This document shows positions 18,001 through 27,000 of a stretch of 64,000 bases of DNA, piece by piece. Made by a program: the position numbers. Each line of letters opens with the position of its first letter. Positions within the stretch are counted from its first letter, which is position 1. This DNA comes from Hydrolagus affinis. Its lineage: Eukaryota. The stretch lies in contig JAAILG010000780.1 in the NCBI GenBank assembly GCA_012026655.1, positions 1 to 64,000 on the forward strand, given 5' to 3'.

Positions 18001-21000
18001 GTCTCAAGTATCCAAGTACCCATTCCATCCATATGATCCTGAGCAACAAACCTCATCATAGCTCAGGGATATGGAACCAACACCCCCGCTCAGATCCGTA
18101 ACCATTGGCAGTCAGGCTTTCAGCCAAGAAGAGCAATTGCCCATCAAGGAAGTTCACCAATTGGTATTATCGCAGGATTTGCATGAAGATCATGAAGTGA
18201 ATGGTTGCAGTTGAGTGTTTATTGCGGTCTAATCTGTGCTGATTTCTAACGACATTCCTTCGAAAGGACTAGGCGGCAAACGGTGAGATAACCAAAAGTA
18301 CGGCAAACAGACCTATGCAAACACAACTCTGTAAACAAAGTGGAGAGTCGGAGCAGAGTTCCTGTGGGTAATTGTGGTCTAATTCCACTTACCAGAAGGA
18401 ATCTCCATTTGAGATTTGGAACCATGTCAGTAAATTGTAAACCGTCATCTTTCAATGAAGATCGGAGATTGCTGCAATATTTAGAGTCAACTTCAGTCGC
18501 ACAGCAGCTTGGAATCGAAATTGGACAGGACAATACCGAAGGCTTGGAGAGCACAAAAGGGATAGCGATAGTCCATACTAAACTCATTCTCAGCAACCTT
18601 TCCAAATTGCATCAGAATATTATTCGCTAAAGTGAGAAACAAGAGGAAGTGTAAGTCACAGTTCAAAATCCATCTGTACATTGGCAACAGTTTCAGTGAA
18701 TCCACCTGAGAATCACTGTGTAAACATGCTTACTGCTGTTTGAACAGTACGTTACAAAGGACTTGCCCAGCTCTGTCTCTGACTTAGTGACTTGTTCGTG
18801 AGTTTGGGGCCGCAGGCCATCCACCACTCCCATCAGTTCCATGCACTTTGGATTTGAATTTTCTCTGTCCTTGCCCATACTGTTGATATGAGATATGACA
18901 GCTCTCATATCAACAGTGAATGAAGCAACAGAGTGAAGTATGCACAAATATTTGAGTTTATGCAGTGCTTTTCACATCAGGAGGATATCACAAGGCACTG
19001 GACTATTGGGTCTGGATTTGGGAGGAGAAAAAGATGACAACAACAATGATTTTAATTTATATAGCGCCCTCTATGCCAGACGGCGTCTCAGAGTGCTTCA
19101 TAATAAAGGATCCCAAAGGCTTGGTCAAAGAGGAAGGTCTTGAGACAGACGTTGAGGGAGATGAGGGAAGCAAATGAGGTGAATGGACTCTGAGATAAGA
19201 GTTCAAAAGAGTGAAAGCAGATAGGCTAAAAGCCTGACTGCCAATGGTGGGTTGGGCAAGAGGTATGAAGCAAGCCAAAGGAGACAATTATATTAGATTG
19301 TGGCAGATCTTTCAATCCCACATTTTTTCCATCATCCTTCAATAAAAGTCAAGTAATAGCTATGTTTAATGGGAAGAGCCCCTTTTGAGACATCCTCTCT
19401 TTATACAGAGATTGTCCAACGCACGGTATCATCCTCCTGAATTGACACTGCACCCATCTCATATTCACCACTTCACTCACGTTCTGAGTGCTGGATTATC
19501 TGGAAGTTTTTCACCGATGGTTTCTTAACCCGGCCCTGGAAGTTGAGGATGAATCCTTTGGCCTTGTTGTTCCATATGGGAGGATTATTGTGGAGTTCCA
19601 GGAGCCCTTGTCGATACTGTGCTCGCCACCTGCTGAGAATGCTCTCACTCGCCTATTAAAAGAGGTTACATTTTCTTCAGTAAAGCAAATTGTATTCAAA
19701 TATCTGTGACACAAAAATGAACTGGATGTGACTGAACTTTCACTGGCCACAGTTTTTCTGACAGTGGAGCATTTCATTGCATTTGCAATGTGAACTGTTC
19801 CCAACATGTCCCCTTCCTGAACTGAACAACCACCCACTCCCATCTCCAGTTCTCCCATATCATCTTATGGTTACTTCTCACATGTTACACACCACTGCAG
19901 CACATCAAAAGGATTGCGACTGACTCTGTGGCCAGCCACTTAATCAAGCAAAGTCCCATAAAAAGCCATAATAATATTGTGATAATAATAATCCTTACAT
20001 TTGGTATAACGACTTTCACGACGGAAAAGTGCATCACAGGATATATTGTAAAGTGGTGTGACTGTATGTTTTATGAGCAAACACTGCAGCCAATTTGTGC
20101 ACAGCAATATCCTGCAAAGCCATCAAGAAACTGACTAATATCATCTGGGGGATTGGTAGTCAGGAGACTTGGAGAAACTCCCTTATCCTGCACCATGGGT
20201 TCTTTAACATCCAACTGAACAGGCAAACATATTTCTCATCAGAAGAACAGCACCTGCAATGATGTGACCTTCCCCAGAGGGTTTATGAGGCACTGGACTT
20301 TCCTTTTATAATAATGCTGCTGCATTTGATATTGTGGAGTATCACCGTCATTGTGACGTCTCAAAGCGCTTCACAGGATATACTGTAAAGTTTGCAGCTA
20401 TGTATATTGTGAGTGAACTTTCCTTTAAGTAGCTGAATAAAGAGGGATTTTTAATGAGAGGATTAATGCCACAGGCCTTTCTTTTGGTGATTATTCCACT
20501 CACATTAAAATTATCTTCTTATCAACTGAGTATCCTCAAAAAATTGTGGCAGAGATGAAACAAGTCACATTTTTAAAAAATATATACAAGTTGATCTTAC
20601 AAGGTACATAGTTAGCCAAGAAACGTGATCAGTATTTAGGGTTCAATTGATTAACAGCTAAATATTTTCCTTACATCCCGAGGTTGGACTGCGATCCGCT
20701 TCCTTGTCTCATCCATTCCCGGAAGGATCACAGTGATTTTTCGAGGTCCTTGGAATCCAAACACATTTACATCCTGGTAGACACAAACAAACAACAGTGT
20801 ATTGAGAGATTAGTATTCTTTCACACTATACCGACTGAGCAGCCAGTGTGCTATAATGCATCTTGCAACTTTGTTCTTTAAAATATCTCCAATTTTCCTT
20901 CCCTTCTAAATTCCACTAACCCTAAAAGAAAAAAAGTATGCCAACGTCTTTTTTTAAAAAAAACAAAGGCACGCATGCCCCTTTAAATAAAAACCCTGAA

Positions 21001-24000: not shown

Positions 24001-27000
24001 ATAGTCCAGCCTGAATGTTATGCATGAATATATGAGAGTTTTGGCAGCTGACAATGTAAGATAGTGGCCCCCAAGAGATGCCCTTCTGAAATGAGAGATG
24101 CTAAGTATTACTATTATCAGTATCAGATCCACATAACCACTGGTGTAACCACTGAAAGCTCAGGATACAACAAAAGTAAAGAAATTAATGGGTGCCAAAC
24201 ATACTTGTTCACTGCCTTCTCTTTCCAAATACAGGTAGTAAGTTGTCCGGAATAATTTTTTCCGTCTCTTGATCATGCATTGAATGATAGTGACTCTTCC
24301 TGCTGGGCACGACACAAACTCCTGCAGGCGATCAACAGTCAGTTCACATGGACCATCCAGATCCAGAAAAGCAGCTGTAGACTGAATTCGAGAGGAAAGA
24401 GGTCAGACTGAGGAATGTTCCAACACCTAATCGGGCTTATTTTTTTAAAAAAAATCTTTAATTAAGAGAGGAATGAAATCGGGAGAGTGGGACTAAATTG
24501 CTAAATGTGGCTATATTATGATCCTCTGTAAATTTTTCTGGGCACTCACGGCTTCAGGAGAAAGTTCTTTGCATCCACAATGGGTAGCGATCATTTCCAA
24601 CTTTGTGGCCGGATCTCCTAAGGTGGAAACAGAAATGATAAGAAGCGATAAAACTGGCCATCCAACTGCAGAAAATACTTCAATCAAAATGCACGGCTCT
24701 GTGCAAGCTTGTCAGGCTGTATTTCTAGGAGCGTTTAAGATTTAAATTTTTTTTTCTCAACATTCACAGTTCAGATGATTCAATCCAATAGGTATTATCT
24801 AATGGAATGCTTTCATTGAGAGCGAGAGAGGCAGAGTGATTTTTTCTTAACACCTTATTACATTGATGCAACAATGATATGGTGCCCCATAAGCATCCCA
24901 GACCACTCGGCAGTGGTGGAATACAATGCAGAGCCAGGGAGAGGTGACCGTAAGCATGGTTGTAAAGGAAGAATTTTGGGCTCGACCTGAAGATGGGGAT
25001 GGAGAGGACAAGATGGAGGTTTAGAGGAAGAGTTCTGCAGAGTTTTTGGGTGAAGTGGCTGAAAGAGCAGCCGCCAATGGTGGAAGAGAGGGCAAAAGGA
25101 ACAAGCAGGATTAGGGCAAGATGCTGGCTGCATTAATATACATGACATTGGTGCTCAGCGGAATTGAGAGTTGAGTTTTACTTGTATCAGTGCCGTTCAA
25201 TTCTTCACAGTGATCCACGCCAAAATTCTGCTCTATGTTTGCTGCCATTGTGTGACCGTCCACTTCATCTTCAGTGAAGAAAGCTGCAGGACCAAGGAAA
25301 CCTGGGGCCATGGGAGAGGAGGCAGAATGAAACATGTACTATTCTGAGACAAAGACTGGAGAGAAGCAAGGGAAAAAAAAGCATAGAGATACTGAATAGA
25401 GAGATGGAGATTTCACTCTCTCTGTGTGAGCCAAGGCATTTACAGGAAACCCATTCAACTGTGTGGGATACCATTAGCGTCTTGGGACGTCCTCCCAACG
25501 TTAAAGTCACTCTATAAATGAAATTTTGTTGTTGTTGTAAGTCCGACTCTGTCCTTCCCCACAAACACTTTGATCATCAGAAATAGCAACTCCCATTGTT
25601 TCCTCTCCTTCTTGGGTCATTGAGGTTGGTTGTAATGCACTAATCATCGCCTTACTCAATAATATAATAATAATAACAACAAACAACAAAATTATACTTG
25701 TATAGCACGTTTCACGTCAGGAGGACATTTCAAGGCGCTGGACAGACATTGTTTCAGACCTGAGCTGAGGTCAGGGACTGGGAGGTTGGAGGGAAAGGGG
25801 GGATTTGGAGTGACCAATGGGACCATCAAAGAGGAGGGTCTTGAGGCAGGACTTGAAGGAGCCCAGGGAGGAGGCGAAGTGGAGGAAATGTGGGATGGAG
25901 TTCCAGAGGTTGGGGGCAGAGTGGCTGAAGGCTCGCCCTCCAATGTTGGGGCGGGTGGGTTGGGGGACATGGAGTAGGCCGGAATAGGGCTTCAAATGTG
26001 AGGACTAGGATCTTGAATTGGATCCTCTGGGTGATGGGGATGCAATGGAGTCAGGCAAGCATGGGGGAGATGGAGCCACGGAGCTTGAAGTAGTAGAGAA
26101 CATAGGCCACAGAGTTCTGGATTATCTGCAACCTGTGGAGGAAGGAATTGGGAAGGCCGACAAGCGTTTGGGCATTTGCGTAGTCAAGCTGGGATGTATG
26201 AAGGCATGAATGAGTGTTTCAGTGGCCATGGGAATAAGGTAATGGCGGAATCAGGCATTATTGCAGAGGTGAGGGAAGGCAGAGTGAGTCATTGCTTGGA
26301 CGTGGTGGAGGAAAGACAGTTGAGGATCAAACAAGACACCTATGTTCCTGACTGGCTTGGTGAGGTTGAGTGTACAACCATGGAGATTAATGCTGGCAGC
26401 GCCTGATGTGTAACAATAGTAATCCTTGCATTTGATTCAGCGGCCTATCGGTTGCCGCAAAATATACAGTCAATTCACATTACACTATAATCTGTGAAGT
26501 GCTTTGAAATGTGTTGAAAACTTGATAAGGCTCTATATCAAATGCAAAGATTATTATTATTATCACGTTGAAATGTCTAAAAGCACTTCACATAATGCAC
26601 TGTAAGGTGGAATGACCATGTATTTTGTGGGCGAAACGCGCCAGCTAATTGTGCACAGCATTATCCCACAAACAGTTGTGGATTTTGAGGGGATTCTTAC
26701 CCCTGGAAAGCAACCTGCCAATCGTCTAACAACCAGGTTCCTACTTACTGCTAGGTAAACAGAGGGGTGTGAAGTAAGGAAAGTTGTCTTAAGTTTTGTA
26801 CCGGCTGAGAATTGAACTCATTTCCTCTCACTTGTGAGGTGACCAATCATTCCACTATTCCATGGGTTTGAGTAGCAACTAACTCAGATAGATTTCCTCC
26901 CTTCACTGCTAAAGGAGGTTGTTTGTATGGGTGTTGTGCGTTAGAAGGATGCTGTGATACTGATGGATCTGTAGCTGAGTGGAAAGCAGGAAGGAAATGT

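What the first reader, a model, noticed from the sequence alone, without database searches (positions are those of the whole stretch)
18493..25335. Strongly diverged but intact tubby-family gene that may be an undescribed TULP paralog
Seen: six tubby-domain exons with an open frame and canonical splice sites, mostly missed by the ORF track. Established: vertebrate TUB/TULP1/TULP3 tubby domains are highly conserved and bind PI(4,5)P2 through the GKLR Lys/Arg and the RQEL Arg; their N-terminus carries an LLEQKQ-type IFT-A-binding helix. This protein keeps GKLR, RQEL, SNY and xNP. It changes many normally conserved segments: RDKKGMDRG is shortened to RRKKLF, RKRKK becomes WKRKK, SNLMGTKF becomes ANAGGTAF, WNDDTQSYV becomes WNNKAKGFI and TQAS becomes KKPS. 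No IFT-A motif is recognisable in the 342-aa model. Inference: a fast-evolving or novel TULP that retains lipid binding but has altered surface charge and partners, perhaps a local TULP3 duplicate, since TULP3 and B4GALNT3 share human 12p13.33.
Basis: partly seen in the sequence, partly recalled or inferred. Interest (0 to 1): 0.72.

Follow-up and report, generated by a model that had tools for sequence, protein, structure and literature searches.

The report
Divergent but intact tubby-family gene
This is a real, intact gene of the tubby (TUB/TULP) family that has changed far more than its well-known relatives, keeps the main lipid-binding residues, and shows no recognisable cilia-transport motif; whether it is an overlooked family member or the local TULP2 could not be settled here.

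Summary
On the minus strand, six exons (24374..18493) with AG/GT borders and consistent phases encode a complete tubby domain. All six match Pfam Tub in colinear order, covering profile positions 4-256 of 256. A putative first exon (25335..25182) has no homology support. Exon sizes 113+112+99+172 nt equal the distance between human TULP1 introns 10 and 14, so this is a classical TUB/TULP1-3-type gene and not a retrocopy.

It is about equally far from TUB, TULP1 and TULP3: 57-58% identity where those three share about 79% (hand counts). Its branch is 3.4-4 times longer than theirs. It shares no excess of TULP3-specific residues.

The canonical PI(4,5)P2 residues and the cargo lysine are kept. 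The first residue of the second lipid site (TUB R301) is Trp. The domain carries net +14 charge. No IFT-A helix was found in the model or in three upstream candidate ORFs.

It is not the TUB, TULP1 or TULP3 orthologue. TULP2 orthologue versus unnamed paralogue stays open, because no TULP2 sequence was reachable. The joined spliced model was not searched, folded or placed on a tree, by instruction.

The parts
25182..25335 (-). Putative first coding exon A (ATG at 25335, donor CAA|GTAAAA, phase 1). It encodes 51 whole codons with net charge -9.
   Evidence: Open frame and splice sites. No Pfam family and no PDB hit at E<=10. A pyrimidine tract plus AG lies directly upstream, with an in-frame TAG just before the ATG, and the Kozak context of the first ATG is poor. 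Real use is unverified.
24205..24374 (-). Exon B, 170 nt, the start of the tubby domain. It holds the shortened beta1-beta2 loop (RRKK-LFR).
   Evidence: Pfam Tub positions 4-35, E 7.5e-4. TULP3 8fh3_I E 0.013 and TUB 1s31 E 0.018, with 1+3 gap columns in the window protein. No TULP1 chain was hit at E<=1.
22894..23006 (-). Exon C, 113 nt. It holds the WKRKK cluster, SNY and GKL, and ends in the first two bases (CG) of the Arg codon.
   Evidence: Pfam Tub 42-77, E 1.2e-6. TUB 1c8z E 8e-10, 24 of 36 identical. It starts at the position of TULP1 codon 334, directly after c.999 (intron 10).
21031..21142 (-). Exon D, 112 nt. It completes the Arg of GKLR and holds ANAGGTAF and RQEL.
   Evidence: Pfam Tub 80-124, E 0.11. 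TUB E 3.9e-5, 19 of 36 identical. It aligns to TULP1 without gaps, 17 of 36 identical.
20675..20773 (-). Exon E, 99 nt.
   Evidence: Pfam Tub 126-156, E 0.0032. TUB and TULP1 E about 5e-7, 16 of 31 identical to each. By the coordinates of the TULP3 hit (310-340), Lys316 corresponds to Gln and Lys320 is kept.
19481..19652 (-). Exon F, 172 nt. It holds WNNKAKGFI, KKPS and SVKNFQ (the cargo lysine). It ends one base into a split codon.
   Evidence: Pfam Tub 160-211, E 2.7e-15. TULP1 E 2.8e-15 (28 of 54), TULP3 E 1.1e-14 (26 of 53), TUB E 3.8e-13 (24 of 52). Its end matches TULP1 c.1495, which is intron 14, phase 1.
18493..18626 (-). Exon G, 131 coding nt plus TGA. It encodes the C-terminal helix of the domain.
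   Evidence: Pfam Tub 220-256, E 7.5e-17. TUB E 4.2e-15, 29 of 41 identical. The alignment reaches the last residue of TUB, TULP1 (2fim) and TULP3.
18218..18223 (-). First AATAAA downstream of the stop (270 nt). A second one lies at 17927-17932 (561 nt).
   Evidence: Pattern search in a script. This is a consensus match only.

Best explanation
The region holds an intact, spliced, protein-coding member of the classical vertebrate TUB/TULP1-3 group. It is not the orthologue of TUB, TULP1 or TULP3. It is a separate, fast-evolving lineage of about the same depth as those three.

Shown:
- A complete tubby domain lies in six exons whose positions and phases match human TULP1.
- The two residues that hold PI(4,5)P2 in the canonical pocket are kept (TUB K330/R332, equal to TULP3 K268/R270). 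So are the RQEL arginine, the SNY asparagine and the cargo-binding lysine (TULP3 K389, equal to TULP1 K489).

Inferred:
- The protein still docks on PI(4,5)P2-rich membrane and can hold cargo.
- Lipid recognition is retuned. The first of the five cationic residues of the cooperative second site (TUB R301) is Trp, and R301A alone lowers affinity and cooperativity in tubby.
- The rest of the domain has gained about 15 net positive charges relative to mouse TUB, which should favour less selective electrostatic binding to anionic surfaces.
- No IFT-A-binding helix was found. It therefore most likely works like TULP1, as a membrane and cargo adaptor not coupled to IFT-A, probably in a restricted tissue.
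For: Gene structure:
- There are six colinear Pfam Tub hits covering profile positions 4-256 of 256.
- All six introns are GT-AG with consistent phases.
- Exons C-F are 113+112+99+172 = 496 nt. This equals the span from TULP1 c.1000 to c.1495, between introns 10 and 14 (Table 2 of PMC3365133). The exon numbers given there for 12 variants fit these borders.

Distances (hand counts on the printed alignments):
- 131 of 243 identical to mouse TUB.
- 110 of 198 identical to TULP1.
- On exons C, E, F and G: 93 of 160 to TUB and 91 of 160 to TULP1, while TUB and TULP1 share 126 of 160. This gives branch lengths of 0.43 against 0.11 and 0.13 with Poisson correction.
- On exons F+G: 53 of 93 to TULP3 and 53 of 93 to TUB, while TUB and TULP3 share 74 of 93.

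Constraint:
- Of 11 assessable TULP1 disease missense positions, 8 are identical and 3 are conservative. Two of those three carry the residue that TUB has. The twelfth position, R311, could not be aligned.
- There are no stops or frameshifts in 266 domain codons despite about 45% divergence.

Residue roles:
- K330/R332: PMC7948452, passages.
- K268/R270 and K389: bioRxiv 10.1101/2021.05.25.445488, passages.
- Residues 301-305 and the R301A effect: PMC9451155, passages.

Other:
- TULP1 lacks IFT-A binding yet is functional: PMC8424140, passages.
Against: - There is no transcript, orthologue or dN/dS evidence, so expression and selection are inferred only from intactness.
- The 5' end is unknown. 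Exon A has no homology support and may be an internal exon.
- The search for an IFT-A helix covered five recalled motif patterns over the whole window, one composition scan, and three candidate ORFs tested against full-length TULP3 and, for two of them, Pfam. A diverged helix, or an exon beyond the window or behind a stop-split ORF, would be missed.
- Mammalian TULP2 is reported to have both IFT-A and PIP2 domains (PMC8424140). If this gene is TULP2, the missing helix may be an artefact of the gene model.
- Trp at the membrane interface might compensate for the lost Arg.
- The fold was not predicted, because the joined model was left out.
- Identities and charges of the reference proteins were counted by hand.
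Confidence: 0.6

Rival explanations
1. It is simply this genome's TULP2 orthologue, the fourth member of the TUB/TULP1/TULP3/TULP2 quartet. TULP2 is the least conserved member in mammals and acts in testis.
For: - The gene is equidistant from TUB, TULP1 and TULP3, with equal numbers (3/3/3) of residues shared with only one of them in exons F+G. That pattern is what a fourth lineage of the same age would show.
- The branch is long (hand counts).
- The exon structure is classical.
- That TULP2 is the fast-evolving member is recalled, not tested here.
- A neighbouring ORF has a TEX33 (testis-expressed) match. This says nothing direct about the tubby gene.
Against: - No TULP2 sequence could be compared. 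There is none among the PDB hits, and the protein databases were closed.
- Mouse TULP2 is said to carry an IFT-A domain (PMC8424140), and none was found here.
- The neighbours are TSPO, a TEX33-like ORF, a TLR1/2-group gene and a CHGN-family gene. By recall, none of them lies beside human TULP2 on 19q13.33.
- Of the 25 papers listed (36 found) for 'tulp2, fish, transcriptome', none concerns a non-mammal. The 3 papers holding 'tulp2' and 'shark' do not describe a shark TULP2.
Confidence: 0.35
2. It is a TULP paralogue with no mammalian counterpart. It is either a lineage-restricted duplicate or an old duplicate lost in mammals, and it has taken on a new role.
For: - The distances and the changed conserved positions are the same as above.
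- The flanking TSPO and TEX33-like genes have human counterparts on chromosome 22q, and B4GALNT3 lies on 12p13.33 near TULP3. Both locations are recalled. No human TULP gene lies on 22q, so the locus does not look like any of the four human TULP loci.
- The domain has an unusual set of changes: R301 to Trp, a loop 4 residues shorter, and net +14 charge.
Against: - There is no excess of TULP3-specific residues (3 of 9 lineage-specific matches, the same as for TUB and TULP1).
- The TULP3-exclusive Lys316 position is Gln.
- There is no second tubby gene within the 64 kb.
- The B4GALNT3 identity is unproven. PA14 was not found in the 7 ORFs upstream of the large 55-56 kb ORF, among 10 further ORFs tested.
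- Gene order changes a great deal over the distances involved.
- Chromosome assignments are recalled, not tested.
Confidence: 0.35
3. It is an unexpressed or decaying copy (an unprocessed pseudogene) that only looks intact.
For: - No transcript evidence was available.
- Exon A and the promoter are unsupported, and no CpG-rich patch lies between 25 and 40 kb.
- The acceptor of exon D is the less common AAG.
Against: - 266 domain codons are open across six exons, all 12 splice dinucleotides are canonical, and the frame is conserved despite about 45% amino-acid divergence.
- Substitutions avoid critical sites. All 11 assessable TULP1 disease positions are identical or conservative, and all tested lipid and cargo residues except R301 are kept.
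- The 8 changes in exon G at otherwise invariant positions are all to chemically similar residues.
Confidence: 0.05
4. It is the sole, ordinary orthologue of TULP3 (or of TUB or TULP1) on a normal branch.
For: It has the classical exon structure and a complete domain. TULP3 gives the best hit for exon B and TULP1 for exon F.
Against: - Identity to each of the three is 57-58% where they share about 79% with one another.
- The best-scoring relative changes from exon to exon.
- The summed bits differ by only about 10%.
- 21 of 67 positions invariant in all three are changed.
Confidence: 0.04

Closest known systems
TUB (tubby; mouse 1C8Z/1I7E, human 1S31)
   Same: - The tubby domain is complete to the last residue and gives the highest summed exon score (224-226 bits).
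- K330, R332, R363 and N310 equivalents are kept, using chain index plus 240.
- Four of the five cationic residues 301-305 are kept.
   Different: - 131 of 243 aligned positions are identical (54%).
- R301 is Trp.
- The beta1-beta2 loop is 4 residues shorter, and the loop before RQEL is 2 residues shorter.
- The exon F segment has net +7 charge against 0 (hand count).
- No IFT-A helix was found.
TULP1 (human 2FIM/3C5N)
   Same: - Exon lengths are identical over TULP1 exons 11-14 (496 nt), and the positions and phases of introns 10 and 14 match.
- Exons C-G align without gaps.
- 8 of 11 disease missense positions are identical.
- Like TULP1, it has no recognisable IFT-A-binding sequence. TULP1 does not bind IFT-A (PMC8424140).
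   Different: 110 of 198 positions are identical (56%). Exon B gives no hit at E<=1. The domain is much more basic.
TULP3 (human, 8FH3 chain I)
   Same: The PI(4,5)P2 residues K268 and R270 and the cargo lysine K389 are kept, and so is Lys320. TULP3 is the best hit for exon B.
   Different: - 71 of 136 positions are identical in the three exons whose alignments were printed (B 18 of 42, F 26 of 53, G 27 of 41).
- Lys316 corresponds to Gln.
- The three N-terminal candidate ORFs give no hit to the full-length chain at E<=10.
- There is no excess of TULP3-specific residues.
TULP2 (mammalian, testis)
   Same: It is a divergent member of the same quartet (recalled) and is not able to replace TULP3 in cilia formation (PMC8424140 abstract). 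A fourth lineage equidistant from the other three is what the counts suggest.
   Different: Mouse TULP2 is reported to have an IFT-A domain. The genomic neighbours differ from the human TULP2 locus (recalled).

Membership tests
Tubby family (Pfam PF01167, Tub) | Complete C-terminal tubby domain matching the family profile end to end | tested here: met
   Six exon translations hit profile positions 4-35, 42-77, 80-124, 126-156, 160-211 and 220-256 of 256 in genomic order. The summed score is 198 bits, and 3 of the 6 exons pass the 27-bit cut-off alone.
Tubby family (Pfam PF01167, Tub) | Canonical PI(4,5)P2 pocket: Lys and Arg of GKLR (TUB K330/R332, TULP3 K268/R270) | tested here: met
   Lys is aligned to TULP3 268 and TUB chain index 90. 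Arg is the split codon CG|A at the C/D junction. The residue roles come from passages of PMC7948452 and bioRxiv 10.1101/2021.05.25.445488.
Tubby family (Pfam PF01167, Tub) | Second, cooperative PI(4,5)P2 site: five consecutive cationic residues (TUB 301-305), stated to be conserved in the TULP family | tested here: not met
   The window protein has WKRKK, so 4 of 5 are cationic and the R301 position is Trp. The single mutant R301A loses strong membrane association and cooperativity (PMC9451155 passages).
Tubby family (Pfam PF01167, Tub) | Fold: beta-barrel around a central C-terminal helix | not tested
   The fold needs the joined six-exon protein, and that step was left out by instruction. 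Indirect support: all 11 assessable TULP1 disease missense positions are identical or conservative.
Tubby family (Pfam PF01167, Tub) | Actual binding of PI(4,5)P2 | not testable with these tools
   It needs a lipid-binding or membrane-localisation assay.
Classical vertebrate TUB/TULP1-3 group | Shared exon-intron structure of the tubby domain | tested here: met
   Exon C starts at TULP1 codon 334, directly after c.999 (intron 10). Exon F ends at c.1495 (intron 14, phase 1). Exons C-F sum to 496 nt, equal to c.1000-c.1495. The exon numbers of 12 TULP1 variants fit these borders.
Classical vertebrate TUB/TULP1-3 group | N-terminal helix that binds IFT-A (present in TUB, TULP2 and TULP3; degenerate in TULP1) | tested here: inconclusive
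   Five recalled motif patterns gave no match in any frame except two hits of the loosest pattern that are not in context. Exon A and the ORFs 27017-27193 and 39009-39125 gave no TULP hit against the PDB, which holds full-length TULP3, at E<=10. Exon A and ORF 27017-27193 gave no Pfam family. The 5' end of the gene is unknown.
TULP3 orthologue or recent TULP3 duplicate | Closer to TULP3 than to TUB or TULP1, sharing TULP3-specific residues | tested here: not met
   Summed bits are TUB 224-226, TULP3 212 and TULP1 202. In exons F+G it shares 3 TULP3-only, 3 TULP1-only and 3 TUB-only residues. The Lys316 position is Gln (by coordinates; PMC7948452).
TULP3 orthologue or recent TULP3 duplicate | Conserved neighbourhood of TULP3 (TEAD4, FOXM1 and RHNO1 in human, recalled) | not tested
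   No targeted search for these genes was made. The 40 ORFs sent to Pfam (of several hundred ORFs in the window) gave Tub, TSPO, TLR, CHGN, TEX33 and RT/RNaseH families, plus weak matches taken for chance, and no TEA or forkhead domain.
TULP2 orthologue | Groups with TULP2 sequences on a tree | not testable with these tools

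The most novel reading that the evidence does not exclude
The gene is a fifth classical tubby-like paralogue that mammals lack. It is as old as the TUB/TULP1/TULP2/TULP3 split or older, and sits in a chromosome block whose human counterpart (22q, recalled) has no TULP gene. 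It has uncoupled the lipid- and cargo-binding barrel from IFT-A. It has replaced part of the cooperative second PI(4,5)P2 site with a tryptophan and a strongly basic surface, giving a tubby domain with a different membrane (or nucleic-acid) specificity.
Probability: 0.3. Interest if true: 0.55.

Novelty: new member of a known kind. Interest (0 to 1): 0.36.

Why it matters
Tubby domains are one of only two well-characterised PI(4,5)P2 readers, and the adaptor logic of TULP3 and TUB (lipid + cargo + IFT-A) underlies several ciliopathies. This is a natural, intact variant that keeps the canonical pocket and the cargo lysine, lacks the R301 position of the cooperative site, carries about 15 extra positive charges, and shows no IFT-A helix. 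It offers a ready-made comparison for how the two lipid sites and the N-terminus divide the work.

If it proves to be a paralogue lost in mammals, it would also revise the family's duplication history. If it is just TULP2, it documents how far that member has drifted outside mammals, where I found no description in the searches run.

Tried and rejected
- **N-terminal exons.** Motif patterns, a charged-helix scan, Pfam on candidate ORFs and PDB searches of exon A, 27017-27193 and 39009-39125 gave nothing that resembles a TULP N-terminus. ORF 27017-27193 has an ATG and a good donor, but its phase does not fit exon A.
- **Protein atlas.** On exon F it only says 'Tub family', with plant-dominated clusters. 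It is useless for telling paralogues apart.
- **Second tubby copy.** tblastn of each exon against the window gave no other hit below E 0.1.
- **B4GALNT3 identity.** There is only one CHGN exon, below the cut-off. No PA14 domain was found in the 7 ORFs upstream of the large 55-56 kb ORF, among 10 further ORFs tested.
- **Literature.** The only link between TULP2 and non-mammals was a Xenopus TRPV8 gene mislabelled TULP2 (PMC9664204), whose neighbourhood is unrelated to this window. The tubby family review (PMC3218838) and the 1997 TULP2 paper are not held.

Full report
**Scope and limits.** Every search below used single-exon translations taken by reference from the window.
- The window is not human in my reading. 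Its tubby gene is only 54-56% identical to the mouse TUB and human TULP1 chains aligned (54% to mouse TUB, 56% to human TULP1), and its gene order differs.
- I did not try to name the organism.

**Is the feature there?** Yes. Stop-to-stop frames on the minus strand between 18.4 and 25.4 kb hold seven pieces. I placed their borders at canonical sites:

| Exon | Coordinates | Note |
|---|---|---|
| A | 25335..25182 | putative first coding exon |
| B | 24374..24205 | |
| C | 23006..22894 | |
| D | 21142..21031 | |
| E | 20773..20675 | |
| F | 19652..19481 | |
| G | 18626..18493 | ends in TGA |

- All six introns (257-1751 nt) begin with GT and end with AG.
- The phases close: 0 after B, 2 after C, 0 after D, 0 after E, 1 after F.
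- The total is 954 nt, or 317 codons plus stop.
- No exon overlaps an intra-window repeat, while 26% of the window and much of the introns do.
- Pfam Tub matches exons B-G at profile positions 4-35, 42-77, 80-124, 126-156, 160-211 and 220-256 of 256, with scores of 19.7, 28.9, 12.6, 17.6, 57.2 and 62.3 bits. Exon A matches nothing.
- Each of B-G also finds TUB and TULP3 chains in the PDB, and each of C-G also finds TULP1 (E 4e-15 to 0.013). Exon B found 4 sequences, none of them TULP1.
- Six colinear, in-frame, splice-bounded matches cannot be chance.

**What kind of tubby gene is it?** Table 2 of PMC3365133 (read as passages) places TULP1 intron 10 after c.999 and intron 14 after c.1495.
- The duplication p.Phe528_Ala529dup fixes the offset of PDB chain 2fim at 266.
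- With that offset, exon C begins at TULP1 codon 334, and exon F ends one base into codon 499.
- The four exons between them sum to 113+112+99+172 = 496 nt, exactly c.1000 to c.1495.
- The exon numbers the table gives for 12 variants (exons 11, 12, 13, 14 and 15) fit the internal borders too.
- The gene therefore has the classical TUB/TULP1-3 architecture and is not a retrocopy.
- AATAAA motifs lie 270 and 561 nt beyond the stop.

**How far is it from the known members?** I counted identities by hand on the midlines printed by HMMER. Only the five best alignments per exon were printed, so TULP3 counts exist for three exons only.

| Comparison | B | C | D | E | F | G | Total |
|---|---|---|---|---|---|---|---|
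| vs mouse TUB | 19/47 | 24/36 | 19/36 | 16/31 | 24/52 | 29/41 | 131/243 (54%) |
| vs TULP1 | no hit | 22/36 | 17/36 | 16/31 | 28/54 | 27/41 | 110/198 (56%) |
| vs TULP3 | 18/42 | not printed | not printed | not printed | 26/53 | 27/41 | |

- In the same printed segments the references are much closer to each other. TUB and TULP1 share 29/36, 22/31, 39/52 and 36/41 (126 of 160, 79%). TUB and TULP3 share 38/52 and 36/41 (74 of 93, 80%).
- On the shared columns the window protein is 93 of 160 to TUB, 91 of 160 to TULP1, and 53 of 93 to both TUB and TULP3.
- A three-point estimate with Poisson correction gives branch lengths of 0.43 for this protein against 0.11 (TUB) and 0.13 (TULP1), a ratio of 3.4-4.
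- Of the 67 positions in exons F+G that are invariant in all three references, 46 are kept and 21 are changed.
- Where exactly one reference differs from the other two in F+G, the window protein carries the TULP3-only residue 3 times, the TULP1-only residue 3 times and the TUB-only residue 3 times.
- Summed exon bits are 224-226 (TUB), 212 (TULP3) and 202 (TULP1).
- There is thus no signal for a TULP3 origin. The gene behaves as a separate lineage of similar or greater depth with a long branch.

**Functional residues.**
- The pocket Lys and Arg are kept. The Lys aligns to TULP3 268, and the Arg is the split codon CG|A. Their roles in TUB (K330/R332) and TULP3 (K268/R270) come.
- The Arg of RQEL (TUB chain index 123, hence residue 363; also TULP1 R400, a disease site) and the Asn of SNY are kept. 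Their role in phosphate binding is recalled from the 2001 structure paper, which I did not read here.
- The cargo lysine is kept. It is TULP3 K389, needed for ARL13B and GPCR cargo, and TULP1 K489, a disease site.
- Of the TULP3 acetylation sites, Lys320 and Lys389 are kept and Lys316 corresponds to Gln (by coordinates). PMC7948452 calls Lys316 exclusive to TULP3 among TULP1-4.
- The second, cooperative PI(4,5)P2 site consists of five consecutive cationic residues, 301-305, said to be conserved in the family. Single mutants R301A, R303A and K304A lose strong membrane association, and R301A lowers affinity and flattens the concentration dependence (PMC9451155). Here that run reads WKRKK, so the R301 position is Trp.
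- Of 12 TULP1 missense disease positions in the table, 11 could be aligned. Eight are identical (R342, G368, T380, R400, L461, R482, K489, F491). Three are conservative (F382 to Tyr and R420 to Lys, both as in TUB, and I459 to Leu).
- The beta1-beta2 loop is 4 residues shorter than in TUB and TULP3.

**Charge.** The six domain exons carry 39 Lys+Arg and 25 Asp+Glu over 263 whole codons, net +14, or +15 with the split Arg. Counting the aligned columns by hand gives about +20 for this protein against about +5 for mouse TUB. Most of the gain is in exon B (+4 against -2) and exon F (+7 against 0). Exon A is acidic (net -9).

**N-terminus.** Nothing resembling the IFT-A-binding helix was found.
- The recalled motif patterns gave no match in context in any frame of the window.
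- A scan for basic, helix-like stretches upstream gave two candidate ORFs, 27017-27193 and 39009-39125.
- Neither candidate, nor exon A, hits the full-length TULP3 chain or any TULP at E<=10. Exon A and ORF 27017-27193 hit no Pfam family.
- The phase of the 27-kb ORF does not fit exon A.
- There is no CpG-rich patch between 25 and 40 kb.
- A strong pyrimidine tract plus AG sits just before exon A, so exon A may be an internal or second exon.
- The absence of the helix is therefore a property of the model, not yet of the gene.

**Context.**
- Downstream on the plus strand is a complete TSPO-type gene in three pieces (TspO_MBR profile positions 2-145 of 145).
- An ORF there has a TEX33 match just above the cut-off (27.5 against 27 bits).
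- Upstream is an intact single-ORF Toll-like receptor of the TLR1/2/6/10/15 group.
- Beyond that lie minus-strand exons of a CHGN-family glycosyltransferase (one exon, E 1.6e-4, below the cut-off). No PA14 domain was found, so 'B4GALNT3' is plausible but unproven.
- No second tubby gene lies in the window.
- From recall only: human TSPO and TEX33 lie on 22q, B4GALNT3 and TULP3 on 12p13.33, and TULP2 on 19q13.33. If right, the locus resembles none of the four human TULP loci closely.

**Most likely working.**
- Shown: an intact classical tubby domain with the canonical lipid pocket and the cargo lysine.
- Inferred: the protein binds PI(4,5)P2-rich membrane and cargo, but with altered tuning. 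The cooperative second site is weakened, or replaced by a membrane-inserting Trp, and there is stronger non-specific electrostatic attraction.
- Inferred: without IFT-A coupling it would act as TULP1 does, not as a ciliary import adaptor like TULP3 and TUB (PMC8424140).
- Intactness after this much divergence, together with the sparing of disease-critical sites, argues for purifying selection. A pseudogene is unlikely.

**Novelty.** The family, the fold and the mechanism are known. What is unusual is the degree and pattern of divergence. I found no paper on tubby-family genes of non-mammalian vertebrates that bears on this. The searches were made, and only listings, abstracts or passages were read. 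I rate it a new member of a known kind. There is about a one-in-three chance that it is merely TULP2, and a similar chance that it is a paralogue absent from mammals.

Noticed in passing
window 3969-5780 (+): A complete TSPO-type (translocator protein) gene lies in three coding pieces, 3969-4199, 4734-5039 and 5613-5780. Together they cover TspO_MBR profile positions 2-145 of 145.
   Followed up: partly
window 40237-42702 (+): An intact 822-codon single open frame encodes a Toll-like receptor (LRR plus TIR domains). The TIR domain is closest to TLR15/TLR2, TLR6 and TLR1 chains, and the ectodomain is closest to TLR2. It faces away from the tubby gene, about 15 kb upstream of it.
   Followed up: partly
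window 50051-50212 (-), 51683-51850 (-), 55024-56484 (-): These are minus-strand pieces of a glycosyltransferase gene. One exon matches CHGN (E 1.6e-4, below the cut-off). A 487-codon highly charged ORF matches no family. PA14 was not found in the 7 ORFs upstream of that ORF, among 10 further ORFs tested.
   Followed up: partly
window 11572-12009 (+): This ORF matches the start of the TEX33 (testis-expressed 33) family, E 4.8e-6 and 27.5 bits against a cut-off of 27. It lies between TSPO and the tubby gene.
   Followed up: no
window 47333-47767 (-): A 145-codon ORF has a weak Jiraiya (TMEM221-like) match, E 1.5e-4 and 21.8 bits, below the cut-off of 27.
   Followed up: no
window 27879-28157 (+); repeats throughout, e.g. 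21584-22068, 23154-24041, 25663-26855: There is a retrotransposon RNase H-like fragment (RT_RNaseH_2, E 6.8e-7, 29.7 bits, just under the 29.8 cut-off). Many interspersed repeat copies fill the tubby introns, and 26% of the window matches another part of the window.
   Followed up: partly
window 54202-54274 (-), 1067-1138 (-): Two tRNA matches in Rfam (49.1 and 43.6 bits) lie in or beside repeated sequence. They may be heads of tRNA-derived SINEs and not tRNA genes.
   Followed up: no
window 59801-60200: This is the most CpG-rich patch of the window that lies outside the repeat-filled tubby intron (GC 0.58, CpG observed/expected 0.74, against 0.37 overall). It lies in low-complexity sequence upstream of the glycosyltransferase exons and may be that gene's promoter.
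   Followed up: no
window 8458-8810 and 12133-12700: Long simple, microsatellite-like tracts read as His/Thr- or Cys/Val-rich ORFs on both strands.
   Followed up: no
window 4-227: The only run of N in the window. It was left as it is.
   Followed up: no
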